IMG/VR virus record: IMGVR_UViG_3300012980_000004
Location: 1-64,000 of that record
Source of the DNA: a virus
Strand: one strand, 5' to 3'
Length of the DNA: 64,000 bases
Each line of letters begins with the position of its first letter. The stretch's first letter is position 1. The notes under the pieces were generated by a model. That model ran no database searches. It was not told the DNA's origin and was given only the letters and a program-made list of their open reading frames with translations. Of the stretch, positions 17,901-55,476 are shown in pieces. Position numbers and translations under genes: made by a program.

Positions 17901-17982
17901 GGGGTGTGTTCTGGACAATGGTAGTCCTAGCTGACTGTAAATCAGTGGCCCTTGGCAAGTGGTTCGATCCCACCACGCCCCA
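17901..17982 (+). tRNA. tRNA-Tyr(GTA), class II
   Basis: Acceptor GGGGTGT/ACGCCCC. Anticodon stem GCTGA/TCAGT, loop CTGTAAA. Long variable arm. T-loop TTCGATC. Confidence 0.8.
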
Positions 17983-18051
17983 CAAAGAAAGATGTAGAGG
18001 AAGAGACATGAAACGTAAGAACAAGCCCGGGAAAGCTGGGCCAAAAAGAGA

Positions 18052-18124
18052 GAGAGGTTAGCTCAATTGGTAGAGCTCGATCCTTTTAAGTTCGATGATG
18101 CGGGTTCGACCCCCGTGCCTCTCA
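18052..18124 (+). tRNA. tRNA-Lys(TTT)
   Basis: Acceptor GAGAGGT/GCCTCTC. D-stem GCTC/GAGC. Loop CTTTTAA. T-arm GCGGG-TTCGACC-CCCGT. Confidence 0.85.
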
Positions 18125-18135
18125 CGCAGTAAAAA

Positions 18136-18209
18136 GGGTCCGTAGCTCAGCAGGTAGCAGCAGTGCGCTCTTAACGCAACGGTCGTCGGTTCGATCCCGA
18201 CCGGACCCA
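18136..18209 (+). tRNA. tRNA-Lys(CTT)
   Basis: Acceptor GGGTCCG/CGGACCC. Loop CTCTTAA. T-arm GTCGG-TTCGATC-CCGAC. CCA encoded. Confidence 0.8.
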
Positions 18210-18289
18210 CCAGGCAGGATGGATGCCTGAGAACTGACATGCGTGTGTCTGCACGCAACGGGAGATAAGTATCTTGAAGGTCTAAATAT

Positions 18290-18360
18290 TGGAGAGTCGT
18301 CTAATGGCAGGACAGCAGTTTCTGACGCTGTTTATGAAGGTTCGATTCCTTCCTCTCCAA
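18290..18360 (+). tRNA. tRNA-Gln(CTG)
   Basis: Acceptor TGGAGAG/CTCTCCA (U1-A72). Loop TTCTGAC. T-arm GAAGG-TTCGATT-CCTTC. Confidence 0.85.
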
Positions 18361-18362
18361 CT

Positions 18363-18390
18363 AAACCCGACGTAAGCCGGGTTTGTTCAT
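18363..18390 (+). terminator. Terminator-like hairpin
   Basis: AAACCCG-acgtaagc-CGGGTTT followed by GTTCATT. The U-tract is weak. Confidence 0.35.
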
Positions 18391-18540
18391 TGAAAATTTG
18401 ACAGGACTTTGGAATCCCGACTTGACCCGGATGCAATACTCTGGGAACAAGCCAACGCGGACCGTGATCGACCCATAATTTTAGTTTGGGGCTGCAGCGC
18501 GTGTTGGTCTGGAAGGACCCTCTCCTGAGATCTGTGAGGA

Positions 18541-18600
18541 GGAGCTAGGGTCCGATTTATCTTCGAATTGAAAGGGCCCTAGCTCCTTCGATTTTTCTGT
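18541..18600 (+). terminator. Terminator-like long hairpin
   Basis: GGAGCTAGGG ... CCCTAGCTCC (10 bp) followed by TTCGATTTTTCTG. Confidence 0.4.
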
Positions 18601-18704: not shown

Positions 18705-18777
18705 GGGGTCATAGCTCAGACGGGAGAGCGCCTGCCTTGCAAGCAGGAGGTCGCGAGTTCGATTCTCGCTGATTCCA
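18705..18777 (+). tRNA. tRNA-Ala(TGC)
   Basis: Acceptor GGGGTCA/TGATTCC with G3-U70. Loop CTTGCAA. T-arm GCGAG-TTCGATT-CTCGC. CCA encoded. Confidence 0.9.
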
Positions 18778-18794
18778 CCAAGAATAAGGTTAGG

Positions 18795-18877: not shown

Positions 18878-18949
18878 CTCTCCGTAGCCTAGAGGATCAG
18901 GTCCTGGTCTACGAAACCAGTTACGCAGGTTCGATTCCTGCCGGAGAGA
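18878..18949 (+). tRNA. tRNA-Arg(ACG)
   Basis: Acceptor CTCTCCG/CGGAGAG. Anticodon stem CTGGT/ACCAG, loop CTACGAA. T-arm GCAGG-TTCGATT-CCTGC. CCA encoded. Confidence 0.85.
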
Positions 18950-19007
18950 CCATGACATTCACCTGTCCAAGGTGAAGCAGTCAGATCAGATTCGAAAGAA
19001 TCTGTAT

Positions 19008-33850: not shown

Positions 33851-33924
33851 CGGAGTGTGGCTCAACCTGGTAGAGCACTCGGTTCGGGATCGAGGGATTA
33901 TGAGTTCAAATCTCATCACTCCGA
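33851..33924 (+). tRNA. tRNA-Pro(CGG)
   Basis: Acceptor CGGAGTG/CACTCCG. D-stem GCTC/GAGC. Loop TTCGGGA. T-arm ATGAG-TTCAAAT-CTCAT. Confidence 0.85.
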
Positions 33925-33929
33925 CAATT

Positions 33930-34002
33930 AGGCGCATAACTCAGCGGTAGCAGTGCCATTTTCACACGATGGAAGTCGGGGGTTCGAATCCCTCTGCGCC
34001 TA
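33930..34002 (+). tRNA. tRNA-Val(CAC)
   Basis: Acceptor AGGCGCA/TGCGCCT. Anticodon stem CCATT/GATGG, loop TTCACAC. T-arm GGGGG-TTCGAAT-CCCTC. Confidence 0.8.
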
Positions 34003-34518
34003 CTAAGACTCTTGAACAGCCATGATCACTGCCATGTTCCGAAGTTCTTCACTCATATTCCCAATTTCGGTTATGTAAGGTGGGATCTTGCAACAAAGTC
34101 CGTTATAGCCTTGACCTGGCTCTCCAGGGTCCCAATCCATCGTGAAGTACATTGCCAGATTCACAACAAAGACTGGGCCTTCATTACCAGTTACGATAGT
34201 GTCGCCGCGAATGGCGATTTGGAATCTTCCAGCAAACCCAGCCAACTTAATCAAAGACTCCATGCGTTCAATAATTGCTTGGTTTACGGCATCTTTAGAC
34301 GATCCGGAAATTTTAAATTCTGGAGGGATAAACCGTCTGCGTTTCGGGTTTGAAGCTCTAAGTTCAAAAATGGTATTTCCGTCTATATCAATTGAATAGA
34401 CAGGGAAGCTCCAACCAGCATTCAGATCATATGCTGGTATAGCTCCAGCTGAAAGGACTTCAGCATTGATCTTTACAACTTCGGCCTTATCAGCCGAAAT
34501 CCGATAAACATCGAGCAT
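34003..34518 (-). CDS. Hypothetical protein (171 aa)
   Basis: ORF track. Flanked on both sides by tRNA genes. Confidence 0.6.
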   Translation of the reverse strand: MLDVYRISADKAEVVKINAEVLSAGAIPAYDLNAGWSFPVYSIDIDGNTIFELRASNPKRRRFIPPEFKISGSSKDAVNQAIIERMESLIKLAGFAGRFQIAIRGDTIVTGNEGPVFVVNLAMYFTMDWDPGEPGQGYNGLCCKIPPYITEIGNMSEELRNMAVIMAVQES

Positions 34519-34523
34519 GTTAC

Positions 34524-34595
34524 GGGCCTAGATGGTCAGGTTGACCGGTTTTGCCTGATAAGCAGAATGGCGTGGTTCAATTCCACGTAGGCCCA
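34524..34595 (+). tRNA. tRNA-Ile(GAT), atypical D-arm
   Basis: Acceptor GGGCCTA/TAGGCCC. Loop CTGATAA on a stem extendable to 7 bp. D-arm GGTC-AGGTT-GACC. T-arm CGTGG-TTCAATT-CCACG. Confidence 0.7.
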
Positions 34596-34607
34596 CTATA
34601 CACTAAA

Positions 34608-36117: not shown

Positions 36118-36121
36118 CTAT

Positions 36122-36195: not shown

Positions 36196-36266
36196 CCATT
36201 TGTAGATTCCTGCCATCTCTTTGTAGATTTTCAGGTCAAGACTAGTTCAACCGTCTTTGGTGGTAC

Positions 36267-37353: not shown

Positions 37354-37363
37354 CTGGCACGTA

Positions 37364-37456: not shown

Positions 37457-37528
37457 GCCCTCGTGTGCATCAGGTGATGCAGCGCCGCTGTCTACGGCGT
37501 GAGGCCGGTTCGATTCCGACCGAGGGCG
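37457..37528 (+). tRNA. Second GTC-anticodon tRNA (Asp-like), T at position 37
   Basis: Acceptor GCCCTCG/CGAGGGC. D-stem TGCA/TGCA. Anticodon stem CGCCG/CGGCG, loop CTGTCTA. One T-stem mismatch. Confidence 0.65.
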
Positions 37529-37555
37529 CTATTGTACTGTGAAGTAGAGGTTGTC

Positions 37556-37782: not shown

Positions 37783-37855
37783 GGGATCATAGCTCAGACG
37801 GGAGAGCGCTGCGTTCGCAATGCAGAGGTCGCGAGTTCGATTCTCGCTGATTCCA
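37783..37855 (+). tRNA. tRNA-Ala(CGC)
   Basis: Acceptor GGGATCA/TGATTCC with G3-U70. Loop TTCGCAA. Confidence 0.9.
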
Positions 37856-37980
37856 CTGGAGTGAGGTTACAGGGAGCAGTGAGCTTCCCAGGCCGAAAGC
37901 CTGACGTGAGTGCAGATAGGCGAATTACGCCGGAGTAACTTCAAATCAACTTCTTTTGCACGCAGGAGTTGGCTCCTACC

Positions 37981-38201: not shown

Positions 38202-38274
38202 GGGGCTGTAGCTCAGTTGGGAGAGCGCTTCCATGGCATGGAAGAGGTCGCCGGTTCGATCCCGGCTAGCTCCA
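38202..38274 (+). tRNA. tRNA-Ala(GGC)
   Basis: Acceptor GGGGCTG/TAGCTCC with G3-U70. Anticodon stem CTTCC/GGAAG, loop ATGGCAT. Confidence 0.9.
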
Positions 38275-38310
38275 CTAGTAAATCGGAGATTGTCTGCTGT
38301 AAACCCAATT

Positions 38311-40662: not shown

Positions 40663-40735
40663 GCCGGTTAGGCCCAGGTAGCGGGGCACCTGTTTGGTAA
40701 ACAGGAGATGTGGGGTGCGATTCCCCAAACCGGCT
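40663..40735 (+). tRNA. tRNA-Thr(GGT)
   Basis: Acceptor GCCGGTT/AACCGGC. D-stem GCCC/GGGC. Anticodon stem CCTGT/ACAGG, loop TTGGTAA. T-loop TGCGATT. CCA encoded. Confidence 0.8.
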
Positions 40736-40753
40736 CCAACTGTAATATTGGAT

Positions 40754-41665: not shown

Positions 41666-41737
41666 GCGGGCGTCGCCAAGTGGTAAGGCGCTAGCCTTCC
41701 AAGCTAGCATTCGTGGGTTCGAATCCCATCGCCCGCT
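41666..41737 (+). tRNA. tRNA-Gly(TCC), second copy
   Basis: Acceptor GCGGGCG/CGCCCGC. Anticodon stem CTAGC/GCTAG, loop CTTCCAA. CCA encoded. Confidence 0.9.
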
Positions 41738-41761
41738 CCACTCTTTTTGTCACTTTAAAAT

Positions 41762-42022: not shown

Positions 42023-42094
42023 GCGGGCAAAGCCAATCGGTTAGGCATCACGTTCCCAACGTGACATTGACGGGTTCAACTCCCGTCGCCCGCT
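42023..42094 (+). tRNA. tRNA-Gly(CCC)
   Basis: Acceptor GCGGGCA/CGCCCGC (7-66 mismatch). Anticodon stem TCACG/CGTGA, loop TTCCCAA. Confidence 0.8.
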
Positions 42095-42208
42095 CCGGTT
42101 GTTCCTATTGGGTGGAAGGCATGCCTCTTACTGCCTGAAGCTTTGAGAAAGAGAAGGTAAGAGTTCTCTTATCTGGGAGACCGTCTTGGGGCGAATGCCC
42201 CAACCAAT

Positions 42209-42277
42209 GATCCGATTCTCCGGCGAGGCGCATGGTCTGCAAAACCGTGTTCGAGGGTCCAACTCCCTCTCGGATCT
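42209..42277 (+). tRNA. tRNA-Cys(GCA), atypical
   Basis: Acceptor GATCCGA/TCGGATC. Discriminator T. Loop CTGCAAA on a stem extendable to 7 bp. Weak D-arm. T-loop TCCAACT. Confidence 0.6.
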
Positions 42278-42281
42278 CCAC

Positions 42282-42355
42282 GCCCCTGTAGCCTAGCGGA
42301 ACAGGCCGTCGTTTTCTAAACGATAGTTACGCGGGTTCGATTCCTGCCAGGGGTG
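42282..42355 (+). tRNA. tRNA-Arg(TCT)
   Basis: Acceptor GCCCCTG/CAGGGGT. D-stem GCCT/AGGC. Anticodon stem GTCGT/ACGAT, loop TTTCTAA. Confidence 0.85.
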
Positions 42356-42372
42356 CTAATTTTGTATAGTAT

Positions 42373-45434: not shown

Positions 45435-45506
45435 GTCCTCGTAGCCTAGCGGAAGAGGCACCGGTCTTCGAAACCGGAAACGCGGGTTCGATTCCTGCCG
45501 AGGACA
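45435..45506 (+). tRNA. tRNA-Arg(TCG)
   Basis: Acceptor GTCCTCG/CGAGGAC. Anticodon stem CCGGT/ACCGG, loop CTTCGAA. Confidence 0.9.
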
Positions 45507-45532
45507 CTAATTGTATTTTAGAAGTAGGAATT

Positions 45533-46164: not shown

Positions 46165-46233
46165 CGCGGTAACACTTGGAGTGGGACAGCTTTCATAAGG
46201 CTGGTCAAGACGGTCCGATTCCGTCTACCGCGA
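46165..46233 (+). tRNA. CAT-anticodon tRNA (Met/Ile2), atypical
   Basis: Acceptor CGCGGTA/TACCGCG. Anticodon stem CAGCT/GGCTG, loop TTCATAA. T-arm GACGG-TCCGATT-CCGTC. D-arm reduced (CAC-TTGGA-GTG). Confidence 0.5.
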
Positions 46234-46239
46234 CTAAGA

Positions 46240-46512: not shown

Positions 46513-46583
46513 TGGGGATTCGTCTAATGGCAGGACAGCAGCCTTTGGAGCTGCCTATCGGGGTTCGAGTCCCTGATCCCCAG
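46513..46583 (+). tRNA. tRNA-Gln(TTG), second copy
   Basis: Acceptor TGGGGAT/ATCCCCA. Anticodon stem GCAGC/GCTGC, loop CTTTGGA. Confidence 0.85.
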
Positions 46584-46612
46584 CCAATGGCATTTTCATA
46601 CGATGACTAAGT

Positions 46613-47372: not shown

Positions 47373-47445
47373 GGGCCAGTAACTCAGCGGTAGCAGTGCC
47401 TCCCTTACAAGGAGGAAGTCGGCGGTTCGAATCCGTCCTGGCCTA
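47373..47445 (+). tRNA. tRNA-Val(TAC)
   Basis: Acceptor GGGCCAG/CTGGCCT (G1-U72). Anticodon stem CCTCC/GGAGG, loop CTTACAA. Confidence 0.85.
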
Positions 47446-47451
47446 CTAAAT

Positions 47452-47513: not shown

Positions 47514-47585
47514 TGGCTAGTAGTTCACCGGTAGAACGCTCCCCTGACACGGGAGAGGTAGAGGGTTCAACTCCCTCCTAGCCAA
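47514..47585 (+). tRNA. tRNA-Val(GAC)
   Basis: Acceptor TGGCTAG/CTAGCCA. D-stem GTTC/GAAC. Anticodon stem CTCCC/GGGAG, loop CTGACAC. Confidence 0.85.
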
Positions 47586-47599
47586 CTGTATAATTGCAA

Positions 47600-48169: not shown

Positions 48170-48367
48170 ATGGATGGGACGATCTATAGTCTCAATTTCA
48201 AGCAACGCTCGAAGCAAAAAGTGAATAGCATATTCTTATCAGGGAATCATTCCCCGAAAGAACTGAATAAAGTTCAGGTTCAGGCAATAGTCGGAATACT
48301 CAAAGAGATTGGACCGACTGCGGCGAAGAAAGAAGTTGTCAGATTCAAGAAGTTCAAGCCAACGTAG
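48170..48367 (+). CDS. Hypothetical protein (65 aa)
   Basis: ATG 48170 has GGAGAG upstream. The 3' end overlaps the tRNA by about 10 nt. Confidence 0.4.
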   Translation: MDGTIYSLNFKQRSKQKVNSIFLSGNHSPKELNKVQVQAIVGILKEIGPTAAKKEVVRFKKFKPT

Positions 48368-48432
48368 CCCAATTGGTAGGAGGCACTTGACTTAGGATCA
48401 AGGCAGTATGGGTTCGAATCCCTTCGTTGGCA
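48358..48432 (+). tRNA. TAG-anticodon tRNA (Leu by anticodon) with class I (short variable loop) body
   Basis: Acceptor GCCAACG/CGTTGGC. Discriminator A. Anticodon stem CTTGA/TCAAG, loop CTTAGGA. Variable loop only GCAGT. Confidence 0.7.
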
Positions 48433-48446
48433 CTGTATGGTTTATT

Positions 48447-48773: not shown

Positions 48774-48850
48774 GGCCGTCGCCTTATCCGGCTGGTTGCC
48801 GGAGCACGTCTTATAAGCGTGTGGCGGGAGTTCAATTCTCGGACGGCCCA
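48773..48850 (+). tRNA. tRNA-Ile(TAT), atypical architecture
   Basis: Acceptor GGGCCGT(C)/(G)ACGGCCC, extendable to 8 bp. 8-nt linker CGCCTTAT. D-arm CCGGC-TGGTT-GCCGG. Anticodon stem CACGT/GCGTG, loop CTTATAA. T-stem only GAG/CTC. Confidence 0.6.
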
Positions 48851-49112: not shown

Positions 49113-49193
49113 GCACAGGTGGGATAAAGGCGAATGGCACAGCCGCTGGTTTCAAAAGCCAGACCTTTGCGGGTTCAAGTCCCGCCCTGTGCA
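49113..49193 (+). tRNA. tRNA-Leu(CAA), atypical (linker insertion, no hairpin variable arm)
   Basis: Acceptor GCACAGG/CCTGTGC. 9-nt linker TGGGATAAA. D-arm GGC-GAATGGCACA-GCC. Anticodon stem CTGGT/GCCAG, loop TTCAAAA. Variable region ACCTTT. CCA encoded, and its last A is the A of the next ATG. Confidence 0.65.
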
Positions 49194-49195
49194 CC

Positions 49196-49459
49196 ATGAA
49201 TAACAAAGTCCGACTTCTAGTCCATGGCGTGACTGTTGAAGAATGGACGAAGCGTTACGGCGTAACGCCGTTCACTCACCCCTGCTACGGGTGCGGGCAT
49301 CCTCTTACGACGACTATTCCATTCGTGCAAGGCCAGCTCCGAGGTCTGCAAGCACCAAAATGTGAATGCGGAGAGCATGATTCCGGGTATAGCCACCCGC
49401 CATACTCTATTGTCCGAGACCCGAAATATGGGGACTTGTTCGATAATTGGGGGAAATGA
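49196..49459 (+). CDS. Hypothetical Cys-containing protein (87 aa)
   Basis: HPCYGCGH...PKCECGEHD. Confidence 0.55.
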   Translation: MNNKVRLLVHGVTVEEWTKRYGVTPFTHPCYGCGHPLTTTIPFVQGQLRGLQAPKCECGEHDSGYSHPPYSIVRDPKYGDLFDNWGK

Positions 49460-49903: not shown

Positions 49904-49986
49904 GGCCCAGTGAGGATAATGAGGAATGGCACACTCTGCGGATTTAAAATCCGTACCTTTTGAGGGTTCAATTCCCTCCTGGGCTA
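49904..49986 (+). tRNA. tRNA-Leu(TAA), atypical (same architecture as Leu-CAA)
   Basis: Acceptor GGCCCAG/CTGGGCT. 10-nt linker TGAGGATAAT. D-arm GAG-GAATGGCACA-CTC. Anticodon stem GCGGA/TCCGT, loop TTTAAAA. Variable region ACCTTTT. Confidence 0.65.
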
Positions 49987-50026: not shown

Positions 50027-50130
50027 GGGGTTGTGACGGAAATGGAAGACGTTAGCTAGGATCAGTACCTGAAGATACTGGACCTGGTGAGGCTCTCAGG
50101 GCCATGTGAGTTCGATCCTCTCCAACCCCA
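50027..50130 (+). ncRNA. 104-nt tRNA-like RNA, anticodon not assignable
   Basis: Acceptor GGGGTTG/CAACCCC. D-arm ACG-GAAATGGAAGA-CGT. Long stem GGATCAGTA/TACTGGACC with 8-nt loop CCTGAAGA. Extra hairpin. T-arm GTGAG-TTCGATC-CTCTC. Confidence 0.45.
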
Positions 50131-50206
50131 CTATTCCCGCAGGATGGTCCTGTGGAAATGAATCGAGGAAATCATGAGAAAGAGACGAAGAAGGCGTAGG
50201 TGAACC

Positions 50207-50850: not shown

Positions 50851-50861
50851 GCTATGTTCAT

Positions 50862-50933
50862 CAGCGTGTAGCGCAGAGGTAGCGCGCTCCCTTGGGGTGG
50901 GAGAGGTCGGAGGTTCGATTCCTCTCACGCTGA
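50862..50933 (+). tRNA. tRNA-Pro(GGG)
   Basis: Acceptor CAGCGTG/CACGCTG. D-stem GCGC/GCGC. Anticodon stem CTCCC/GGGAG, loop TTGGGGT. Confidence 0.9.
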
Positions 50934-50960
50934 CCCGGTTTCATTATGTAGCGTTAGATC

Positions 50961-51756: not shown

Positions 51757-51843
51757 GGAAGGTGCGCCCCACCGGGTGGGGGCCTGCTTGGAAAGCAGTG
51801 CGGGCGGCGAAAGCTGCCCGGGGTTCGACTCCTCCTCCTTCCG
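51757..51843 (+). tRNA. tRNA-Ser(GGA), class II
   Basis: Acceptor GGAAGGT/TCCTTCC. Loop TTGGAAA. Variable arm GGGCGGC-GAAA-GCTGCCC. T-loop TTCGACT. Discriminator G. Confidence 0.8.
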
Positions 51844-51847
51844 CTAC

Positions 51848-51932
51848 GGAAGCTAAACCGATCGGGGATCGGCGCTGTTTTGAAAACAGATGGGCCTCGC
51901 AAGGGGCTGGGGATCGAGACCTCTGGCTTCCG
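51848..51932 (+). tRNA. tRNA-Ser(TGA), class II
   Basis: Acceptor GGAAGCT/GGCTTCC. Loop TTTGAAA. Variable arm GGGCCTC-GCAA-GGGGCT. T-arm GGGG-ATCGAGA-CCTC. Confidence 0.75.
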
Positions 51933-51971
51933 CTATTCGTAAATTCGCCTCCCCTAGGCGTAAGTTTTTTC

Positions 51972-52505: not shown

Positions 52506-52519
52506 TTGAAAGGTTTTCT

Positions 52520-52888
52520 GTGGCTAATTACCAAACAACGTCTGAGCTGATTGATCAACAGAAACAATGGGTTCAGGATACACACGGTAAGTGGGTCGGT
52601 CAAATTGAATGGTCTGATGTTGAATATGTTCAGACATCAAGTTTGAAACCGTCCGAGCTGAATAAGGACGGTATGCCTACGAACCCACCCTCTCCTGAAA
52701 AAGGACACCAATCCATATATTCTTCAAGTGAAGAGCTCATTCAAGCTCTCACTAACGCTCTTGAATGTGGAGAACCACTCCCACCATTGGTAGTTAGTGA
52801 AGTAAATGTACTCGATGGTCACCATCGTTGGATAGCAGCAAACCGTGCTAAGTGTGAGACTGTGCCTATTCTTAGAATATCTTTATAG
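52520..52888 (+). CDS. ParB/sulfiredoxin-fold N-terminal domain protein (122 aa)
   Basis: PPLVVSEVNVLDGHHRWIAANRAKCETVPI. Confidence 0.65.
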   Translation: MANYQTTSELIDQQKQWVQDTHGKWVGQIEWSDVEYVQTSSLKPSELNKDGMPTNPPSPEKGHQSIYSSSEELIQALTNALECGEPLPPLVVSEVNVLDGHHRWIAANRAKCETVPILRISL

Positions 52889-52905
52889 TTGCTACAATGG
52901 ATTTA

Positions 52906-52994
52906 GGAAGGTGAACTGGACAAGCGCGCCAGCACGGCTTCGAACACCGTTGGACGTTGAAATATACGTTGGGGATCAAGACCTCCGCCTTCCG
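52906..52994 (+). tRNA. tRNA-Ser(CGA), class II
   Basis: Acceptor GGAAGGT/GCCTTCC. Loop TTCGAAC (C31.A39). Variable arm GACGT-tgaaatat-ACGTT. T-arm GGGG-ATCAAGA-CCTC. Confidence 0.75.
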
Positions 52995-53366
52995 CTAAGT
53001 AAGATGAGTTTTGGCGTAGACTAACCATCTTTGAACATCTTGCTTCAAATCATCGATGGTTTTATTCGGACGATCGTCTGGAGAACCTTTCGGTTTGTCT
53101 AATAAATAGGTGACCTCGGCCACCCAGTCACCAGTATTGGCCATATTGAAAGGTTCCACAATGTCTTTGAATCCTCCGACAACGGTGAGAAGCCAGACCA
53201 AATTGTCTCGCTGATATTTATTGAGTTTGATAGTCCAAGAATCGGGTTCACCATTCTTATCTAGGCCAACTTTAGGCCTTTCGCATCCTATCTTGTGCTC
53301 GATAGGTTGGGTTGTTGAACCGGCTTCACACCAATGGCAATAGTACGTGGGTGAGGATTGAACCAT
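52995..53366 (-). CDS. Hypothetical protein (123 aa)
   Basis: ORF track. Confidence 0.55.
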   Translation of the reverse strand: MVQSSPTYYCHWCEAGSTTQPIEHKIGCERPKVGLDKNGEPDSWTIKLNKYQRDNLVWLLTVVGGFKDIVEPFNMANTGDWVAEVTYLLDKPKGSPDDRPNKTIDDLKQDVQRWLVYAKTHLT

Positions 53367-53386
53367 CTTGAACAGTACAGTTCTTT

Positions 53387-54175
53387 ATGTTAGACGGCTG
53401 CCCTCTCGTACTTGGTCCTGCACGTGAAGCTTGGATTCTTCAAGCCGTATTGGATGGGAAAGCTGAATACTCTTTTACTCCGATCATTGGAGCGTGTATT
53501 GGCCATAAGGGAACATTTCAAGTCTTCGCTGATGCGCTAAAGATCGACGGTATAAGAATCATTCTGAGTGCAGAAACACAGCAGAAAATCGCCGATGCGC
53601 TTGATTGTCTGCTTCTTACTCCGAAACTCGCGGATCTCATATTCTTGCAATCCGACGCTATCTTAGATCCAATGCCTCGAGCCATTGGAGATGGAAGCCA
53701 TATGTCGGATACGCAGTGGATGATCGATCAGAGCCAAGATATCGATAAAGCGTTAGCTAAGTTCTCATCTAAGCCTGCTCTCCCATCGACGCTGGGGAAA
53801 CACTGGTGCATTGACGAGAGTCTCGCAAAACTCCCTGTAGGAACCGCATGTAATTACGGCTGGCACTTTCGAGGCCCGAATTTCCAAGGCATTACAGGGG
53901 AAATCACTGCGAGCCAAGCTAAATGGACGAACGGCTCTTTCATACGACTCATTCAAGGCCGTGGAACTCGTCATGATATGCATCACTCGGACTATAGTCA
54001 GAACTGCATTCTAGTAGCCAGGAAATGTGAGATCGATGGCGTCGAGATGCAATTGGATGACGTCCTAAAAGATCCCGTCCTGTCTACAATAGTAAGCCAC
54101 CAGGGACCCATGACCGTGCTTCGCCAGCCGGGCGTTCCGGTTCAGGCTCCCCCAGGCGACGACAATCCTTATTGA
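53387..54175 (+). CDS. Hypothetical protein (262 aa)
   Basis: ORF track. No domain recognised. Confidence 0.6.
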   Translation: MLDGCPLVLGPAREAWILQAVLDGKAEYSFTPIIGACIGHKGTFQVFADALKIDGIRIILSAETQQKIADALDCLLLTPKLADLIFLQSDAILDPMPRAIGDGSHMSDTQWMIDQSQDIDKALAKFSSKPALPSTLGKHWCIDESLAKLPVGTACNYGWHFRGPNFQGITGEITASQAKWTNGSFIRLIQGRGTRHDMHHSDYSQNCILVARKCEIDGVEMQLDDVLKDPVLSTIVSHQGPMTVLRQPGVPVQAPPGDDNPY

Positions 54176-54867
54176 CTGTAGGTTGGGATATGGGGCTTCT
54201 CGAAGACATCAAAAAGCTTCCAGGATTGAAGCAGATGCTTATGTCCCGCCCTGACTATCAGAAGCTCGTCCAAGAGGCAAAGAAGGTCGGGACTGAGCCA
54301 CCAGCTGGTATTCGAATAGTAGAATCCAACATTATTCCACCCGGACAGATGCTGATCACGGAGCTGCCAGAATTTATCGGCCAAATACCAATCAGGCAAG
54401 AGCTCTCTATACTTCCAGACGACGATCCGAAATTTAAGGTGACCGGATGGCAGATGTCTGAACATATCGGAGTCGGGGTCATAAATCCCAAAAGTATTAG
54501 TGGGATTTCCATGGAGCGCCCAACTCTTATCTTCGAATGGCCTATTCCTGTTTTTCGAGGAATATGGCTCCGGACGTCGTACTATCAAGGTGCAATGTGT
54601 TTAAGCATGGTAGCTCAAGGGCCGATCCATCAAGATACGAAGATTGCTGTTTATGATGGGAAATTTGCCTTCGGTCCCAGTAATACTACTGGGTTTGATC
54701 ATGTATTACCTGACATGCTCCGAGAAAGCGTTTTGGCTTCCCATGAAGTCAAGAGTGCTTATCTTAATCAAAGCATCGCTGAGAATCTGGCGGGGGATCC
54801 TTTCTGGCAGCGATACATCGATGAAGTCCGAACGGTTTTCGAAGTTGCCCAAGTGATGCTGACGTGA
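54172..54867 (+). CDS. Hypothetical protein sharing a C-terminal motif with 14167..14694
   Basis: Ends ...GDPFWQRYIDEVRTVFEVAQVMLT. Alternative start ATG 54190. Confidence 0.6.
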   Translation: MTVGWDMGLLEDIKKLPGLKQMLMSRPDYQKLVQEAKKVGTEPPAGIRIVESNIIPPGQMLITELPEFIGQIPIRQELSILPDDDPKFKVTGWQMSEHIGVGVINPKSISGISMERPTLIFEWPIPVFRGIWLRTSYYQGAMCLSMVAQGPIHQDTKIAVYDGKFAFGPSNTTGFDHVLPDMLRESVLASHEVKSAYLNQSIAENLAGDPFWQRYIDEVRTVFEVAQVMLT

Positions 54868-55394
54868 CTGTAGCGATCTTCTGTGGTAGCCGAGAGTGGA
54901 CGGACCCTCATCCGATACGCGAAGCGTTGGCGCTGCTCCCTCCAGGCTCTACAGTGATCCACGGCGACCAAAGAGGTGCCGACATCATTTCTGAGGCTGA
55001 AGCCAAGGCGATGGGACATGATGTAATAGCTGTTCCAGCTGATTGGGAATTAGGGCCGCCTGCAGGTCCGATTCGCAATGAAGGTATGCTAAAAAGACTG
55101 CTTGCTGCAGCTCATTTCGGTCAAGCCGTTCGAACTTTCGCATTCCATTTCGACCCTCAGCTTGGTTCCGGGACTCGAGATATGGTGCAGAAATCTTTAA
55201 AGGCTCGAGTCCGAGTAAGTGCTTTCATTTGGACTGGTGGAGGGAATATTGATTGCTTCCGTTCTTCAGGTGCCACAGAATGCCCTCATTGCGGGACTGA
55301 GTATTGGCGCCATCCAGACATTACGTCAGTTTTAGACAAAGAGAAACGTCCTTTTTTGCATTTGGCCTGTGATGGCCGATTCTTGAAATTATGA
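54864..55394 (+). CDS. SLOG/DUF2493-like Rossmann-fold protein
   Basis: VAIFCGSREWTD...PGSTVIHGDQRGADIISEAEAKAMG...VPADWE...GPIRNEGM. Confidence 0.6.
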   Translation: MTVAIFCGSREWTDPHPIREALALLPPGSTVIHGDQRGADIISEAEAKAMGHDVIAVPADWELGPPAGPIRNEGMLKRLLAAAHFGQAVRTFAFHFDPQLGSGTRDMVQKSLKARVRVSAFIWTGGGNIDCFRSSGATECPHCGTEYWRHPDITSVLDKEKRPFLHLACDGRFLKL

Positions 55395-55395
55395 C

Positions 55396-55476
55396 ACCCT
55401 CGTAGCCTAGCGGATGAGGCACTTGTTTCCTAAACAAGGTCGAAAGACGACGCTGGTTCGAGTCCAGCCGAGGGTA
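55396..55476 (+). tRNA. tRNA-Arg(CCT) with 13-nt hairpin variable arm
   Basis: Acceptor ACCCTCG/CGAGGGT. Anticodon stem CTTGT/ACAAG, loop TTCCTAA. Variable arm GTCG-AAAGA-CGAC. T-arm GCTGG-TTCGAGT-CCAGC. Confidence 0.75.

What the first reader, a model, noticed from the sequence alone, without database searches (positions are those of the whole stretch)
17901..55476. Near-complete private tRNA repertoire (about 50 genes, all 20 amino acids)
Hand-folding gives these anticodons. Ala TGC/CGC/GGC; Arg ACG/TCT/TCG/CCT; Asn GTT x2; Asp GTC x2; Cys GCA; Gln CTG and TTG x2. Glu CTC/TTC; Gly GCC, TCC x2 and CCC; His GTG; Ile GAT/TAT; Leu GAG/CAG/TAG/CAA/TAA; Lys TTT/CTT. Met/CAT x4; Phe GAA; Pro CGG/TGG/GGG; Ser GCT/GGA/TGA/CGA; Thr TGT/CGT/GGT; Trp CCA; Tyr GTA; Val TAC/GAC/CAC. 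With wobble this set can read essentially every sense codon. The genes are scattered singly or in small groups among small ORFs rather than forming one block. Some encode CCA and most do not. Such a set implies near-independence from host tRNA pools, for example resistance to tRNA-depleting defences.
Basis: partly seen in the sequence, partly recalled or inferred. Interest (0 to 1): 0.7.

Follow-up and report, generated by a model that had tools for sequence, protein, structure and literature searches.

The report
Huge-phage tRNA island with Y-RNA cluster
The stretch really is a phage-borne set of about 51 tRNA genes that can read every codon, a trait already known from huge phages. Embedded in it is a less expected cluster of six tRNA-like "Y RNA" genes next to a probable Ro60-type RNA-binding protein.

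Summary
Between 17903 and 55477, all on the + strand, I count 51 tRNA genes covering 45 anticodons, all 20 amino acids and an initiator-type tRNA. ARAGORN at default settings, and 39 reach the Rfam tRNA gathering score. Ten structurally odd genes need relaxed settings plus comparative support.

The element is a huge phage. Its relatives lie on contigs up to 659 kb, and 45 of 76 carry at least 10 tRNAs (up to 47 within 22 kb) around the same conserved gene. GenBank virus Rctr197k has 41 annotated there. Complete phage tRNA sets are published (XacN1, 56 tRNAs; huge phages, up to 67). This is therefore a new member of a known kind. Independence from host tRNA pools is plausible but untested.

The new part lies at 29302-30403. 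ARAGORN's second "Arg-ACG" there is the tRNA-like domain of a Y-like RNA. Six tRNA-like RNAs of about 130-145 nt sit 4 kb downstream of a probable Ro60-like protein. Four of them are circularly permuted "long tRNA" forms, belonging to a strongly covarying family with 178 hits in relatives.

The parts
17903..17983 (+). tRNA-Tyr GTA (81 nt, class II)
   Evidence: ARAGORN default. No Rfam hit. Acceptor 6/7. Best relatives' matches are Tyr.
18052..18125 (+). tRNA-Lys TTT
   Evidence: ARAGORN default. Rfam 57.1 bits.
18136..18212 (+). tRNA-Lys CTT, CCA encoded
   Evidence: (57.2 bits).
18290..18361 (+). tRNA-Gln CTG
   Evidence: 59.5 bits.
18705..18780 (+). tRNA-Ala TGC, CCA encoded
   Evidence: (69.8 bits).
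18878..18952 (+). tRNA-Arg ACG, CCA encoded
   Evidence: (56.6 bits).
19008..19077 (+). tRNA-Trp CCA (marginal: very small D arm, C-A closing the anticodon stem)
   Evidence: ARAGORN -ps80 only. Acceptor 7/7. Rfam tRNA-Sec model 25.8 bits. Three of the top five relatives' matches are Trp.
19174..19250 (+). tRNA-Phe GAA
   Evidence: 49.1 bits.
20212..20283 (+). tRNA-Gln TTG
   Evidence: 54.2 bits.
20358..20430 (+). tRNA-Asn GTT
   Evidence: 65.7 bits.
20493..20565 (+). tRNA-Asn GTT (second copy)
   Evidence: 61 bits.
20935..21021 (+). tRNA-Ser GCT (marginal: T loop ATCGTGC)
   Evidence: ARAGORN -ps80. Acceptor 7/7. The syntenic ortholog L099:459-546 is called Ser-GCT at default settings.
21495..21569 (+). 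tRNA-Glu CTC
   Evidence: 58.9 bits.
21830..21902 (+). tRNA-Thr TGT
   Evidence: 69.2 bits.
22983..23057 (+). tRNA-Thr CGT
   Evidence: 42.5 bits.
23074..23146 (+). tRNA-Met CAT with an initiator-like anticodon stem (GGGCTCATAACCC) but a G1-C72 pair
   Evidence: (64.8 bits). The comparison with E. coli tRNA-fMet is from my own knowledge.
23546..25435 (+). 629-aa vWA protein, probable divergent Ro60 (TROVE + vWA); the conserved core gene around which the clade's tRNA arrays lie
   Evidence: Pfam VWA_2 only. More than 1500 homologs at 62-84% identity on contigs up to 659 kb. Foldseek top full-length hits are the TROVE domain and Ro60, including phage phiLo Ro60.
27672..28088 (+). 138-aa weak JAB-domain protein in the conserved vWA-to-ThiF module
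   Evidence: Pfam Prok-JAB E 0.0044. The same weak hit appears in relative L099.
28681..29259 (+). 192-aa ThiF/E1-like protein, last gene of the conserved module, directly upstream of the Y-like RNA cluster
   Evidence: Pfam ThiF E 1.4e-20. Conserved in L099, L100, L101 and L144.
29302..29438 (+). 'Long tRNA' A: 137-nt permuted Y-like RNA, 7-bp acceptor GAGGGAG/CTCCCTC, anticodon-type loop CGGTAAA
   Evidence: Model R1 77.3 bits.
29441..29585 (+). Y1: YrlA-type Y-like RNA. Long terminal stem with an AAAC(GAA)/TCTC internal loop, then CACAAGC, T arm, acceptor-like hairpin closed by GCAA, D arm and an anticodon-like hairpin
   Evidence: MFE -55.6 kcal/mol with this architecture. Rfam tRNA partial hit 22.1 bits at 29507-29573. 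Similar elements occur in 37 of 76 relatives.
29591..29722 (+). 'Long tRNA' B (132 nt)
   Evidence: R1 94 bits.
29724..29860 (+). Y2: Y-like RNA with an 11-bp terminal stem. Its tRNA-like core is ARAGORN's 'tRNA-Arg ACG' 29751-29822 (acceptor 4/7)
   Evidence: (Rfam matches model positions 5-66 only). The homologous element is conserved in L101.
29868..29996 (+). 'Long tRNA' C (129 nt). ARAGORN intron mode mis-calls it as tRNA-Arg CCG with a 38-nt intron
   Evidence: R1 109.4 bits.
30269..30403 (+). 'Long tRNA' D (135 nt), loop ATTTGGA, followed by a C run
   Evidence: R1 69.8 bits.
30827..30903 (+). tRNA-Met CAT with the bacterial initiator acceptor end (CGCGGGG...CCCGCA-ACCA, C1xA72), CCA encoded
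   Evidence: (41.3 bits). The initiator rule is from my own knowledge.
30915..30987 (+). tRNA-Glu TTC
   Evidence: 57.6 bits.
32431..32504 (+). tRNA-Gly GCC
   Evidence: 66.9 bits.
32531..32603 (+). tRNA-Gly TCC
   Evidence: 69.4 bits.
32704..32790 (+). tRNA-Leu GAG (class II)
   Evidence: 51.9 bits.
33480..33564 (+). tRNA-Leu CAG (class II)
   Evidence: 48.2 bits.
33851..33925 (+). tRNA-Pro CGG
   Evidence: 62.4 bits.
33930..34003 (+). tRNA-Val CAC
   Evidence: 54.2 bits.
34524..34596 (+). tRNA-Ile GAT
   Evidence: ARAGORN default. Rfam 25.7 bits. Ortholog L099:11151.
36045..36118 (+). tRNA-Pro TGG
   Evidence: 59.5 bits.
36123..36198 (+). tRNA-His GTG, CCA encoded, G at -1 opposite C73
   Evidence: ARAGORN -ps90. 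Rfam 40.7 bits. All five top relatives' matches are His. Sequence.
37280..37354 (+). tRNA-Asp GTC
   Evidence: 55.5 bits.
37457..37529 (+). Second tRNA-Asp GTC (marginal: 6-bp D stem with a 4-nt loop, T at position 37)
   Evidence: ARAGORN -ps80 with a 6-nt loop. My hand fold gives CGCCG-CTGTCTA-CGGCG. Rfam tRNA-Sec model 30.3 bits. Four of the top five relatives' matches are Asp.
37783..37856 (+). tRNA-Ala CGC
   Evidence: 65.3 bits.
38202..38275 (+). tRNA-Ala GGC
   Evidence: 60.8 bits.
40663..40738 (+). tRNA-Thr GGT, CCA encoded
   Evidence: (49.3 bits).
41666..41740 (+). tRNA-Gly TCC (second copy), CCA encoded
   Evidence: (68.3 bits).
42023..42096 (+). tRNA-Gly CCC
   Evidence: 46.4 bits.
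42209..42280 (+). tRNA-Cys GCA, short D arm, CCA encoded, abuts the next tRNA by 1 nt
   Evidence: ARAGORN default. Rfam Sec model 28.7 bits..
42282..42356 (+). tRNA-Arg TCT
   Evidence: 51.5 bits.
   Evidence: ARAGORN default. No Rfam hit. Acceptor 7/7. Best relatives' matches are Arg-CCG.
45435..45507 (+). tRNA-Arg TCG
   Evidence: 66.8 bits.
46165..46234 (+). tRNA-Met CAT (marginal: 3-bp D stem, T loop TCCGATT)
   Evidence: ARAGORN -ps90. Acceptor 7/7. Best relatives' match is Met.
46513..46586 (+). tRNA-Gln TTG (second copy), CCA encoded
   Evidence: (57.1 bits).
47373..47446 (+). tRNA-Val TAC
   Evidence: 60.7 bits.
47514..47586 (+). tRNA-Val GAC
   Evidence: 64.9 bits.
48358..48433 (+). 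tRNA-Leu TAG (76 nt, no long variable arm)
   Evidence: (59.3 bits).
48777..48849 (+). tRNA-Ile TAT (marginal: acceptor 5/7)
   Evidence: ARAGORN -ps90.. Best relatives' match is Ile-TAT.
49113..49196 (+). tRNA-Leu CAA (84 nt, enlarged D region, short variable loop), CCA encoded
   Evidence: ARAGORN -ps90 calls it Gly-GCC with a poor anticodon stem. My hand fold of the sequence gives CTGGT-TTCAAAA-GCCAG. Rfam 30 bits. All five top relatives' matches are Leu.
49904..49986 (+). tRNA-Leu TAA (paralog of the Leu-CAA gene)
   Evidence: Rfam 38.4 bits. ARAGORN -ps80..
50038..50131 (+). Doubtful tRNA-like element (acceptor 4/7, GAA-type loop, long extra arm); not counted as a tRNA
   Evidence: ARAGORN -ps90.. 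No convincing relative.
50861..50936 (+). tRNA-Pro GGG
   Evidence: 64.7 bits.
51757..51844 (+). tRNA-Ser GGA
   Evidence: ARAGORN default. Rfam Sec model 38.7 bits.
51848..51933 (+). tRNA-Ser TGA (marginal: T loop ATCGAGA)
   Evidence: ARAGORN -ps90. Acceptor 7/7 and shares the GGAAG acceptor start with the other Ser genes. Relatives' matches are Ser.
52906..52995 (+). tRNA-Ser CGA (marginal)
   Evidence: ARAGORN -ps80. Acceptor 7/7. Relatives' matches are Ser.
55396..55477 (+). tRNA-Arg CCT (82 nt, 12-nt variable region)
   Evidence: (57.1 bits).

Best explanation
SHOWN. The region is the tRNA island of a huge bacteriophage. It holds 51 co-oriented tRNA genes spread over 37.6 kb among small ORFs. 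They carry 45 distinct anticodons, enough to read all 61 sense codons without superwobble.

INFERRED for the tRNAs. The genes are transcribed on the + strand and matured by the host's RNase P, 3' processing enzymes and CCA-adding enzyme; most lack an encoded CCA. They are charged by host synthetases. One gene has the C1xA72 end typical of bacterial initiators, and tRNA-His has G-1 opposite C73, which points to a bacterial host. The set gives the phage a full replacement decoding pool, so phage translation continues when host tRNAs are depleted. That depletion could come from tRNA-cleaving defence nucleases or from the phage's own host shut-off. The many structurally deviant tRNAs would be poor substrates for nucleases tuned to host tRNAs.

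SHOWN at 29302-30403. Six tRNA-like RNAs of about 130-145 nt lie 3.9-5 kb downstream of, and on the same strand as, a conserved vWA protein. That protein is probably a divergent Ro60. Two RNAs (Y1, Y2) have the YrlA-type layout, with a terminal stem; Y1 also has a closed acceptor hairpin, whereas Y2 keeps only a short acceptor-like stem. Four are circular permutations of the YrlA layout, with an open 7-bp acceptor stem and the stem-internal-loop module closed in the variable-arm position.

INFERRED for this cluster. The RNAs are cut out of one transcript by tRNA-processing enzymes and form Ro60-type RNPs that act on tRNA or structured-RNA turnover during infection.
For: Reality of the tRNA genes:
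- ARAGORN default gives 42 calls on one strand against 0 in 20 shuffles.
- Excluding the Y2 match, 39 tRNA genes score at or above 29 bits on Rfam RF00005 (37 of the 38 gathering-score hits plus 2 found in E-value mode).
- The marginal genes have good acceptor stems and their best matches among relatives' tRNAs share their identity.
- The set has 45 anticodons and all 61 codons are used.

Phage identity and clade trait:
- Collagen-like tail-fibre genes are present.
- Relatives come from IMG/VR viral contigs of 266-448 kb and from other assemblies up to 659 kb.
- tRNA arrays flank the same vWA gene in 45 of 76 relatives, almost always co-oriented with it.
- GenBank Caudoviricetes record KX853510.1 has 41 annotated tRNAs there.

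Literature: single phage tRNAs counter PARIS, retron and anticodon-nuclease defences (PMC11464382, PMC11555353, PMC10264068).

Ro60 and Y-RNA part:
- The highest-ranked full-length Foldseek hits (ranks 1-3, 5, 10) are TROVE/Ro60 structures, E 1.5e-7 to 1e-4.
- Y1 folds into the YrlA architecture and contains a CGAA core (PMC4201824).
- Model R1 finds 178 hits, with 94.9% of cells paired against 58% in shuffles and 1056 double-change cells against 288.
- A strict pattern scan gives 90 hits on the + strand and 0 on the - strand of the vWA loci, and 0 in 1.06 Mb of control loci.
- Y1, when rotated, folds into the long-tRNA layout.
Against: - There are no expression, processing or charging data.
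- The host is unknown, so neither codon compensation nor defence evasion can be tested.
- No tRNA-processing, repair or synthetase gene lies in the window.
- Seven of the ten marginal tRNAs (Trp, Ser-GCT, Asp2, Met 46165, Ile-TAT, Ser-TGA, Ser-CGA) fail both standard detectors and could be decaying copies.
- The Ro60 assignment rests on structure comparison with a mediocre model (pTM 0.49, TM-scores 0.17-0.25). No sequence method finds a TROVE domain.
- Y1 matches the published GNCGAAN0-1G motif only in its CGAA core.
- The anticodon-type loops of the long forms are not conserved between close orthologs, and U33 is present in only 67%.
Confidence: 0.6

Rival explanations
1. Codon-usage compensation. 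The phage carries tRNAs for codons that are common in its own genes but poorly served by the host's tRNA pool.
For: This is the classical explanation for phage tRNAs, as discussed in PMC10264068. Duplicated genes (Asn, Asp, Gln-TTG, Gly-TCC) coincide with fairly frequent codons, such as GGA at 40% of Gly and CAA at 59% of Gln.
Against: The set is exhaustive rather than selective. It has 45 anticodons, including cognates for the rarest codons (AGG, CGG, CTA, TTA). The window's codon usage is nearly even, with GC3 of 0.45. A complete set is not what targeted compensation predicts. The host genome is unknown, so a direct test was not possible.
Confidence: 0.15
2. Broad host range. A complete, host-independent decoding set lets the phage replicate in hosts with very different tRNA pools and codon usage, without any role in defence evasion.
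For: This has been proposed for XacN1, which has 56 tRNAs and a wide host range (PMC5852040). Near-identical copies of this phage occur in assemblies with three different run-accession prefixes (SRR128441xx, SRR234463xx, ERR12387305), and relatives occur in many environments.
Against: There are no host-range data. This reading does not explain the structurally deviant tRNAs or the link with a Ro60-like/Y-RNA module. It is not exclusive of the best explanation.
Confidence: 0.15
3. Largely non-functional accumulation. The tRNA genes spread by duplication and by mobile-element or homing-endonuclease traffic, and many are decaying pseudogenes.
For: Ten genes are non-canonical and fail default detectors. 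T-arm-only fragments lie at 18795 and 40279. There is a doubtful element at 50038. GIY-YIG and HNH genes border or lie within the island.
Against: At least 44 of the 51 genes have 7/7 acceptor pairs in the listing, and none has fewer than 5/7. Anticodons are almost non-redundant (45 kinds in 51 genes), which random accumulation would not give. Orthologs keep their order and identity in L099 at about 70-87% DNA identity. Large sets recur across a clade whose core protein has diverged to 52-69% identity.
Confidence: 0.07
4. The region is a fragment of a cellular genome or another non-viral element rather than a phage.
For: No capsid or terminase gene lies in the window. RuvB, response-regulator and ThiF genes look cellular.
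Against: The window has collagen-like tail-fibre proteins with strong PHROG hits. It has no rRNA or ribosomal protein genes. Homologs come from IMG/VR viral contigs and from a GenBank Caudoviricetes record. The gene content of small unknown ORFs is typical of phages.
Confidence: 0.03

Closest known systems
tRNA complements of huge phages (Al-Shayeb et al. 2020, PMC7162821; up to 67 tRNAs per complete genome)
   Same: Uncultivated phages with genomes above 200 kb carry dozens of tRNAs distinct from the host's. The window's relatives lie on contigs of 266-659 kb and carry up to 47 tRNAs within 22 kb.
   Different: I could not show which named clade this phage belongs to. That paper does not, in the passages I read, describe the vWA/Ro60-like gene as the anchor of the arrays, nor the long tRNA-like RNAs.
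Xanthomonas jumbo phage XacN1 (PMC5852040): 56 tRNA genes for all 20 amino acids
   Same: It has a complete 20-amino-acid set of similar size, spread over a region of similar length (66 kb against 38 kb here).
   Different: No DNA similarity was found in the phage collection beyond tRNA-sized hits. XacN1 was not among the hits for the vWA protein. XacN1's tRNAs lie in direct terminal repeats, and whether this island is repeated is unknown.
Virus Rctr197k, GenBank KX853510.1 (partial genome, 197 kb, methane-oxidising enrichment culture)
   Same: It has the same vWA protein (58.6% identity over the full length) and a ThiF-like gene, with 41 annotated co-oriented tRNAs on both sides and the same pattern of G34, U34 and C34 isoacceptors.
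   Different: The tRNAs form two tight blocks rather than being scattered. Model R1 found no long tRNA-like RNA in that locus.
Bacterial and phage Ro60 (Rsr) with YrlA-type Y RNAs (Chen et al. 2014, PMC4201824; phage phiLo Ro60, PMC12135203)
   Same: A vWA-containing protein whose best structural matches are Ro60 sits about 4 kb from tRNA-like ncRNAs on the same strand. Y1 has the published order of parts: terminal stem with a CGAA core, variable region, T arm, closed acceptor-like hairpin, D arm. The M. smegmatis YrlA has a 7-bp acceptor stem that is cut by RNase P and receives CCA.
   Different: The protein has no sequence-detectable TROVE domain and has an extra N-terminal beta-rich domain. 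Four of the six RNAs are circularly permuted, with native open acceptor ends, a 7-nt anticodon-type loop and the stem module in the variable-arm position. No Rfam family other than tRNA matches them.
Single phage tRNAs that neutralise tRNA-targeting defences (PARIS, PMC11464382; retrons, PMC11555353; anticodon nucleases, PMC10264068)
   Same: Phage-encoded isoacceptors replace or escape cleavage of host tRNAs.
   Different: Those cases involve one or a few specific tRNAs with demonstrated rescue. Here the whole repertoire is replaced and nothing has been tested.

Membership tests
tRNA genes (Rfam RF00005 / cloverleaf) | Cloverleaf recognised by a covariance model or by ARAGORN at default thresholds | tested here: met
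   41 genes pass ARAGORN default, 39 score at least 29 bits on RF00005, and the union is 44 of 51. Shuffles give 0. The other 7 are found only at relaxed thresholds.
tRNA genes (Rfam RF00005 / cloverleaf) | 7-bp acceptor stem, 7-nt anticodon loop with U33, T arm next to the 3' acceptor strand | tested here: met
   One search lists these features for 50 of the 51 genes. At least 44 have 7/7 acceptor pairs as called. The lowest are Ile-TAT and ARAGORN's fold of Leu-TAA at 5/7; my hand fold of Leu-TAA gives 7 pairs including one G-U. Asp2 and Leu-CAA were refolded by hand.
tRNA genes (Rfam RF00005 / cloverleaf) | Mature, CCA-ended, aminoacylated RNA is produced | not testable with these tools
   Needs tRNA-seq and charging assays.
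Huge/jumbo-phage tRNA island | Encoded on a phage genome above 200 kb | tested here: inconclusive
   The window itself is 64 kb, and its exact copies in Logan assemblies are 5.5-29 kb contigs. Relatives sharing its core proteins are on viral contigs of 266-659 kb. Tail-fibre genes are present.
Huge/jumbo-phage tRNA island | Many co-oriented tRNA genes interspersed with small ORFs | tested here: met
   The same holds in relatives.
Complete phage tRNA complement (XacN1-type) | tRNAs for all 20 amino acids | tested here: met
   All 20 amino acids are represented. Trp rests on a marginal call only. His is supported by Rfam at 40.7 bits.
Complete phage tRNA complement (XacN1-type) | Location in long direct terminal repeats | not tested
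   The genome ends are not available.
Ro60 / Rsr (TROVE + vWA) | C-terminal vWA domain | tested here: met
   Pfam VWA_2 at residues 431-515, E 1.4e-6, in all 22 family members scanned.
Ro60 / Rsr (TROVE + vWA) | HEAT-repeat TROVE ring | tested here: inconclusive
   The Foldseek full-length top hits are TROVE/Ro60 structures (E 1.5e-7 to 1e-4, probability 1.0), and one BFVD hit is named a TROVE protein. TM-scores are only 0.17-0.25 and the model pTM is 0.49. There is no Pfam TROVE hit even at E of 10 and no Ro60 hit by sequence profile.
Ro60 / Rsr (TROVE + vWA) | Y RNA gene(s) within about 4 kb on the same strand (criterion of PMC4201824) | tested here: met
   The cluster starts 3.9 kb after the stop codon, on the same strand. 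In relatives there are 90 pattern hits on the + strand and 0 on the - strand.
YrlA-type Y RNA | 5' and 3' ends pair in a stem carrying the GNCGAAN0-1G motif | tested here: inconclusive
   Y1 and Y2 have terminal stems of 10-11 bp with an internal loop. Y1 has AACGAACAG, which matches the CGAA core but not the full motif.
YrlA-type Y RNA | tRNA-like T and D stem-loops with a closed acceptor-like stem-loop between them | tested here: met
   Met for Y1 (29441-29585): T arm ACGGG-TTCGAAT-CCCGT, an 8-bp hairpin closed by GCAA, and D arm GCCGAATGGAATAGGC. It is not met for the four long forms, whose acceptor stem is open.
YrlA-type Y RNA | Bound by Ro60 | not testable with these tools
   Needs pull-down or EMSA.
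Canonical tRNA (applied to the four long forms 29302-30403) | Length about 70-95 nt and a match to the tRNA covariance model | tested here: not met
   They are 129-137 nt, and RF00005 gives no hit to any of them even at E of 10 on the 1.26-kb stretch.
Canonical tRNA (applied to the four long forms 29302-30403) | Anticodon loop with U33 and a purine at 37, conserved among orthologs | tested here: inconclusive
   Among 45 family members with 7-nt loops, U33 is present in 67% and a purine at 37 in 93%. The loops differ between the window and its 84%-identity relative L099: CTCACTA against CTCAATA, and CATTCAA against CTATCAA.

The most novel reading that the evidence does not exclude
The tRNA island is built around a phage Ro60-like RNP system with a previously undescribed RNA partner. 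These are circularly permuted Y RNAs of about 120-145 nt that are full tRNA look-alikes. They have an open 7-bp acceptor stem, often with an encoded CCA, a D arm, a 7-nt anticodon-type loop and a T arm. The Ro60-binding-type stem and internal loop are inserted as a giant variable arm.

The family is widespread, with 178 hits near the same gene in 77 loci of the clade. In several subgroups the discriminator base matches the anticodon according to synthetase identity rules: TCC with U73 in 7 of 7, GTT with G73 in 4 of 4, and GTA with A73 in 3 of 4. These RNAs may therefore be processed, CCA-tailed and even aminoacylated. If so, they would tether a Ro60-type protein to the tRNA-handling or translation machinery, or act as decoys for tRNA-targeting nucleases.
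Probability: 0.4. Interest if true: 0.75.

Novelty: new member of a known kind. Interest (0 to 1): 0.5.

Why it matters
As a tRNA repertoire this is one more example, though a very clean one, of a phage carrying a full decoding set. With 45 anticodon species it has every kind normally found in bacteria, by my own recollection more than E. coli itself carries.

It shows that standard tRNA finders miss about a fifth of the genes in such phages because the tRNAs are structurally deviant. Published counts for huge phages are therefore probably underestimates, and calls of "missing amino acids" may be artefacts.

It also shows the opposite error. One default tRNA call and one intron-mode call are in fact parts of Y-like RNAs.

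The link between the tRNA arrays, a conserved Ro60-like gene and a large covarying family of tRNA-shaped RNAs gives a concrete lead. It can be tested by RIP-seq and tRNA-seq, and it bears on how huge phages manage tRNA supply, turnover or protection during infection.

Tried and rejected
- **DNA search.** A near-identity search of 24 kb of the island against 50,697 phage records gave only tRNA-sized hits.
- **Relatives without tRNAs.** Relatives found through the AAA protein (55549-57801) and through RuvB mostly have no tRNAs nearby. The arrays are therefore not tied to those genes. The DUF1365 protein and the single-sequence vWA query found nothing in IMG/VR.
- **Logan copies.** These are 99.9-100% identical to the window, so they give no covariation.
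- **Fourth Met-CAT.** It was not found by ARAGORN down to -ps80, by Rfam at E of 10 or less, or by a T-arm scan.
- **'tRNA(tta)' at 37359-37433.** I rejected it as a suppressor. The acceptor stem is poor and the MFE is a long plain hairpin.
- **Element at 50038-50131.** It is left uncounted, with acceptor 4/7 and no homolog.
- **Minus-strand 'Thr' at 39521-39597 (-ps90).** I treated it as noise, because it lies inside the RuvB gene.
- **T-arm-only motifs at 18795 and 40279.** They have no matching acceptor strands.
- **ARAGORN intron mode.** Its only extra call is long tRNA C.
- **Sequence-based tests for TROVE.** Pfam at E of 10 or less on 22 members and a PDB sequence profile were both negative.
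- **Other readings of the giant variable arm.** I considered an intron, a riboswitch and a small ribozyme. No Rfam family matches, and it has no bulge-helix-bulge geometry by my inspection of the folds.
- **tRNA-related enzymes.** Pfam on 20 window ORFs and precomputed Pfam on the Logan copies show no synthetase, CCA-adding enzyme, RNA ligase or RNase.

Full report

ARAGORN with default settings finds 42 tRNA genes in the window. All are on the + strand, the first at 17903 and the last ending at 55477, and there are none in the flanking 26 kb. Twenty dinucleotide-preserving shuffles of the window give no calls at default settings, 0.5 per 64 kb at -ps90 and 33.6 at -ps80. The default calls are therefore far beyond chance, -ps90 calls are mostly trustworthy, and -ps80 calls need independent support.

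Rfam's tRNA model gives 38 hits at its gathering score. With the more permissive filters it adds Leu-CAG 33480 (48.2 bits) and His-GTG 36123 (40.7 bits).

**2. The marginal genes**

Relaxed ARAGORN runs add ten candidates:

| Gene | Start | Note |
|---|---|---|
| His-GTG | 36123 | Rfam 40.7 bits |
| Met-CAT | 46165 | |
| Ile-TAT | 48777 | acceptor 5/7 |
| Ser-TGA | 51848 | |
| Trp-CCA | 19008 | |
| Ser-GCT | 20935 | |
| Ser-CGA | 52906 | |
| Leu-TAA | 49904 | Rfam 38.4 bits |
| 84-nt gene | 49113 | Rfam 30 bits, ends in ACCA |
| 73-nt gene | 37457 | tRNA-Sec model 30.3 bits |

I refolded the last two by hand from the sequences.
- Gene 49113 has the anticodon arm CTGGT-TTCAAAA-GCCAG, so it is Leu-CAA.
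- Gene 37457 has CGCCG-CTGTCTA-CGGCG, so it is a second Asp-GTC with an unusual 6-bp D stem.

Eight of the ten have 7/7 acceptor pairs as called; the hand-refolded Leu-TAA has 7 including one G-U, and Ile-TAT has 5/7. All ten lie between called ORFs.

As an independent test I aligned each candidate against 1301 default-called tRNAs from related phages. For every one of the ten, the best match has the same amino-acid identity. For example, all five top matches of His are His, all five of Leu-CAA are Leu, four of five for Asp2 are Asp, and Ser-GCT matches its syntenic ortholog in L099.

A 94-nt element at 50038 fails these tests and is not counted. A '(tta)' call at 37359 is a plain long hairpin.

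**3.

One default call must be removed. 'Arg-ACG' at 29751-29822 has only 4/7 acceptor pairs, and Rfam matches only model positions 5-66. It belongs to a larger RNA, described in section 6.

The total is 51 tRNA genes with 45 different anticodons for all 20 amino acids.

Eleven genes encode CCA and four more encode CC only. Of the rest, most have C at position 74, often as CTA. In relatives, about 92% of 1198 tRNAs have C74 and 38% have a full CCA.

One CAT gene (30827) has the acceptor end CGCGGGG...CCCGCA-ACCA with a C1xA72 mismatch. From established knowledge this is the hallmark of bacterial initiator tRNA. tRNA-His has G at -1 opposite C73. Both features point to a bacterial host.

**4. 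Decoding capacity**

The composition of the set is as follows.
- Every four-codon box has G34, U34 and C34 anticodons. For Arg-CGN these are A34, U34 and C34.
- Gln, Glu, Lys, Leu-UUR and Arg-AGR each have both U34 and C34.
- Ile has GAT and TAT.

All 61 sense codons occur in 11,358 codons of the window's larger genes. Usage is fairly even, with GC3 of 0.45. Each codon has either a Watson-Crick cognate or a standard G34/I34 wobble reader.

The claim that the set can read essentially every sense codon is therefore correct. The set is exhaustive rather than tuned to particular codons.

**5. What the element is**

No phage record is similar at the DNA level. The window does encode collagen-like tail-fibre proteins with very strong PHROG hits. 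Exact copies occur in Logan assemblies with three different run-accession prefixes (SRR128441xx, SRR234463xx, ERR12387305).

The 629-aa vWA protein in the middle of the island (23546-25435) has more than 1500 homologs at 62-84% identity, on contigs up to 659 kb. With an alignment of these homologs I fetched 72 IMG/VR loci.

Counting those loci plus four others, 45 of 76 relatives have at least 10 tRNAs within 10 kb of that gene. The median is 16.5 and the maximum is 47 tRNAs with 40 anticodons. Almost all are co-oriented with the gene. GenBank's Virus Rctr197k (KX853510.1, Caudoviricetes) has the same protein at 58.6% identity, flanked by 41 annotated tRNAs.

The closest relative, L099 (84% identity for that protein), keeps the order of the tRNAs from Asn-Asn-Ser-Glu-Thr-Thr-Met through to Pro-His.

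Large tRNA sets are therefore a trait of a widespread clade of huge phages. Published precedents are up to 67 tRNAs in huge phages (PMC7162821) and 56 tRNAs for all 20 amino acids in XacN1 (PMC5852040). The finding is a new member of a known kind.

**6. What else is there: a Y-RNA-like cluster**

*Layout of the cluster.* The 1.1 kb after the ThiF-like gene (29260-30410) contains six canonical T-arm motifs (NNNNG-TTCGAMT-CNNNN) and no convincing ORF. Four of the T arms are followed by a 7-nt strand that pairs perfectly with a 7-mer 128-136 nt upstream. This defines RNAs at 29302-29438, 29591-29722, 29868-29996 and 30269-30403.

On its own, two of the four (B and D), like most relatives, fold into one architecture; the MFEs of A and C depart from it, although all four match model R1 (69.8-109.4 bits) and the orthologs of C and D in L099 show the canonical fold:
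- an acceptor stem;
- a D hairpin with a GG-containing loop;
- a 5-bp stem with a 7-nt loop;
- sometimes a small GNRA hairpin;
- a large variable arm, made of an outer stem, a CTC-containing internal loop and an inner 6-bp hairpin;
- an invariant ACAAG, usually within YACAAGC;
- a T arm, the acceptor strand and a discriminator base.

*The family in relatives.* A strict pattern scan finds 90 such RNAs on the + strand of 49 of 76 relatives' loci. It finds none on the - strand and none in 1.06 Mb of control loci.

A covariance model built from 24 members finds 178 hits at E of 1e-3 or less. Exactly four of them are in the window.

On the resulting alignment:
- 94.9% of cells pair, against 58% in shuffles and 29-51% in slid controls;
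- there are 1056 double-change cells, against 288 in shuffles;
- 20 of 21 pairs show compensatory changes.

The acceptor and T stems were part of my selection, but the two variable-arm helices were not, and they covary just as strongly. No Rfam family other than tRNA matches the region, even at E of 10.

*The two other RNAs.* Between the long forms lie two further RNAs.

Y1 (29441-29585) folds with an MFE of -55.6 kcal/mol into the following (partial Rfam tRNA hit):
- a long terminal stem with an AAAC(GAA)/TCTC internal loop;
- CACAAGC and a T arm;
- an acceptor-like hairpin closed by GCAA;
- a canonical D arm;
- an anticodon-like hairpin.

This is the order of parts published for YrlA-type bacterial Y RNAs, including a CGAA core near the 5' end (PMC4201824).

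Y2 (29724-29860) has a similar 11-bp terminal stem. Its core is the false 'tRNA-Arg ACG'. A homologous element with the same anticodon-arm sequence occurs in L101.

*Permutation.* If Y1 is rotated, opening the acceptor hairpin and closing the terminal stem with a tetraloop, it folds into exactly the long-form layout. It then aligns better to three of the four long forms than the unrotated sequence does (z of 3.4-3.9 against shuffles). The long forms are thus circular permutations of the Y-RNA layout. Their giant variable arm corresponds to the Y RNA's terminal stem and internal loop.

*Packing.* Five of the six RNAs (A, Y1, B, Y2, C) are packed head to tail with 1-7 nt spacers from 29302 to 29996, and the sixth (D) follows after a 272-nt gap. 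From this I infer that they are released from one transcript by tRNA-processing enzymes.

**7. Is the neighbouring protein a Ro60?**

Y RNAs are, by the published criterion, encoded within about 4 kb of Ro60 on the same strand. The cluster starts 3.9 kb after the vWA gene, on the same strand.

- Sequence methods see only the vWA domain.
- An AlphaFold model (pLDDT 73.5, pTM 0.49) shows a beta-rich N-terminal domain, a helical-repeat region and the vWA domain.
- In Foldseek against the PDB, the best full-length matches are a 'Trove domain' structure (9kop, E 1.5e-7), Ro60 of Thermus phage phiLo (9l5y) and animal Ro60 structures. These alignments span 520-590 columns. Most other significant hits align only a vWA-domain-sized stretch.
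- BFVD gives viral proteins of about 500-550 residues, including one annotated as a TROVE protein.
- TM-scores are low (0.17-0.25).

I therefore rate the Ro60 assignment as probable, not shown.

Phage Ro60 homologs with Y-like RNAs are known from mycobacteriophages, CcrColossus, phage G and phiLo (PMC4201824, PMC12135203). TROVE proteins are noted in a subset of jumbo phages as RNA-repair platforms (PMC7824862).

**8. How it most likely works**

*Shown:*
- a complete, co-oriented tRNA gene set on a huge-phage genome;
- many tRNAs that are structurally atypical;
- a conserved vWA...JAB...ThiF gene module and a Y-like RNA cluster at the centre of the island.

The atypical tRNAs include very small D arms (Trp, Met 46165, Cys, Arg-CCG) and Ser tRNAs with A54-type T loops. 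Leu-TAG, Leu-CAA and Leu-TAA have no long variable arm, whereas Arg-CCT has one.

*Inferred:*
- The tRNAs are matured by host enzymes and charged by host synthetases.
- They keep phage translation running when the host pool is depleted or cleaved.

This agrees with experiments in which single phage tRNAs neutralise PARIS, retron and anticodon-nuclease defences (PMC11464382, PMC11555353, PMC10264068).

An exhaustive set is not what codon compensation predicts. Without the host genome I cannot exclude compensation or a host-range role.

The Ro60-like/Y-RNA module may handle tRNA or structured-RNA turnover, or act as a decoy. In bacteria the Ro60/Y-RNA operon is linked to tRNA damage (PMC7790460, title and abstract). 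This last step is speculation.

**9. Verdict**

- As a tRNA repertoire it is a new member of a known kind, of moderate interest.
- The permuted, tRNA-shaped Y-like RNAs beside a probable Ro60 are the part that deserves follow-up.

Noticed in passing
window 29302-30403 (and L099:7299-8313, L100:14458-15875, L101:14397-14520): Cluster of six tRNA-like RNAs of about 130-145 nt, made up of two YrlA-type Y-like RNAs and four circularly permuted 'long tRNA' forms. They belong to a strongly covarying family with 178 hits in related phages. No Rfam family other than tRNA matches.
   Followed up: yes
window 23546-29259: Conserved gene module running from a vWA (probable Ro60-like) protein through a 331-aa protein and small ORFs to a weak JAB protein and a ThiF/E1-like protein. 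It is present in L099, L100, L101 and Rctr197k. L101 also has a Multi_ubiq gene upstream, which suggests a ubiquitin-like conjugation or deconjugation system beside the RNP genes.
   Followed up: partly
window 18795-18811 and 40279-40295: Perfect T-arm motifs (AGTGG-TTCGATT-CCACT and ACGGG-TTCGACT-CCCGT) with no matching acceptor strands. They may be remnants of tRNAs or free-standing T-arm mimics. The second follows a 9-bp hairpin that looks like a terminator.
   Followed up: partly
window 37356-37410: Long, nearly perfect hairpin of about 55 nt between the two Asp-GTC genes; the 106-nt stretch containing it has an MFE of about -49 kcal/mol. ARAGORN at -ps80 mis-reads it as a tRNA with anticodon TTA.
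   Followed up: partly
window 50028-50131: Structured element of about 100 nt with a T-arm-like hairpin, an 8-bp extra arm and a GAA-type loop, but a poor acceptor stem. Its nature is unclear.
   Followed up: partly
window 48358-48433, 49113-49196, 49904-49986, 55396-55477: Three of the five tRNA-Leu genes lack the long variable arm that bacterial tRNA-Leu normally has, and two of them have an enlarged D region instead. tRNA-Arg CCT has a 12-nt variable region. Rctr197k's annotated Leu tRNAs are also short (73-80 nt).
   Followed up: partly
window, 3' flanks of the tRNA genes; relatives L099-L216: After the discriminator, most genes without CCA still have C74, often as CTA (about 24 genes in the window). 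In relatives about 92% of 1198 tRNAs have C74, with CCA in 461, CTA in 186 and CTG in 131. This may be a 3'-processing signal or decayed CCA.
   Followed up: partly
window 42209-42356 and 45362-45507: Two tRNA pairs in which a short-D-arm, CCA-encoding tRNA (Cys-GCA, Arg-CCG) abuts the next tRNA (Arg-TCT, Arg-TCG) with a 1-nt spacer.
   Followed up: no
window 15206-16006 and 50207-50824: A GIY-YIG gene at the edge of the tRNA island and an HNH endonuclease gene inside it. They look like homing endonucleases, as in other phage tRNA regions.
   Followed up: no
window 9208-13854 (- strand) and 42819-44306: A 1548-aa collagen-repeat tail-fibre-like protein on the opposite strand in a GC-rich patch (0.56). 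A second collagen plus laminin-G protein lies inside the tRNA island.
   Followed up: no
window 40694-41635, 45712-46164, 60181-60534: An ADP-ribosylglycohydrolase gene and two stand-alone response-regulator receiver-domain genes lie among or just after the tRNAs.
   Followed up: no
L004:18065-18140: A more distant relative, found through the AAA protein, carries a tRNA with anticodon CTA, which would be an amber suppressor. This hints that some members of the wider group may recode TAG. No convincing suppressor is present in the window.
   Followed up: no
window 30400-30410: A run of C residues directly follows long tRNA D (ATTGCCC followed by at least seven C).
   Followed up: no
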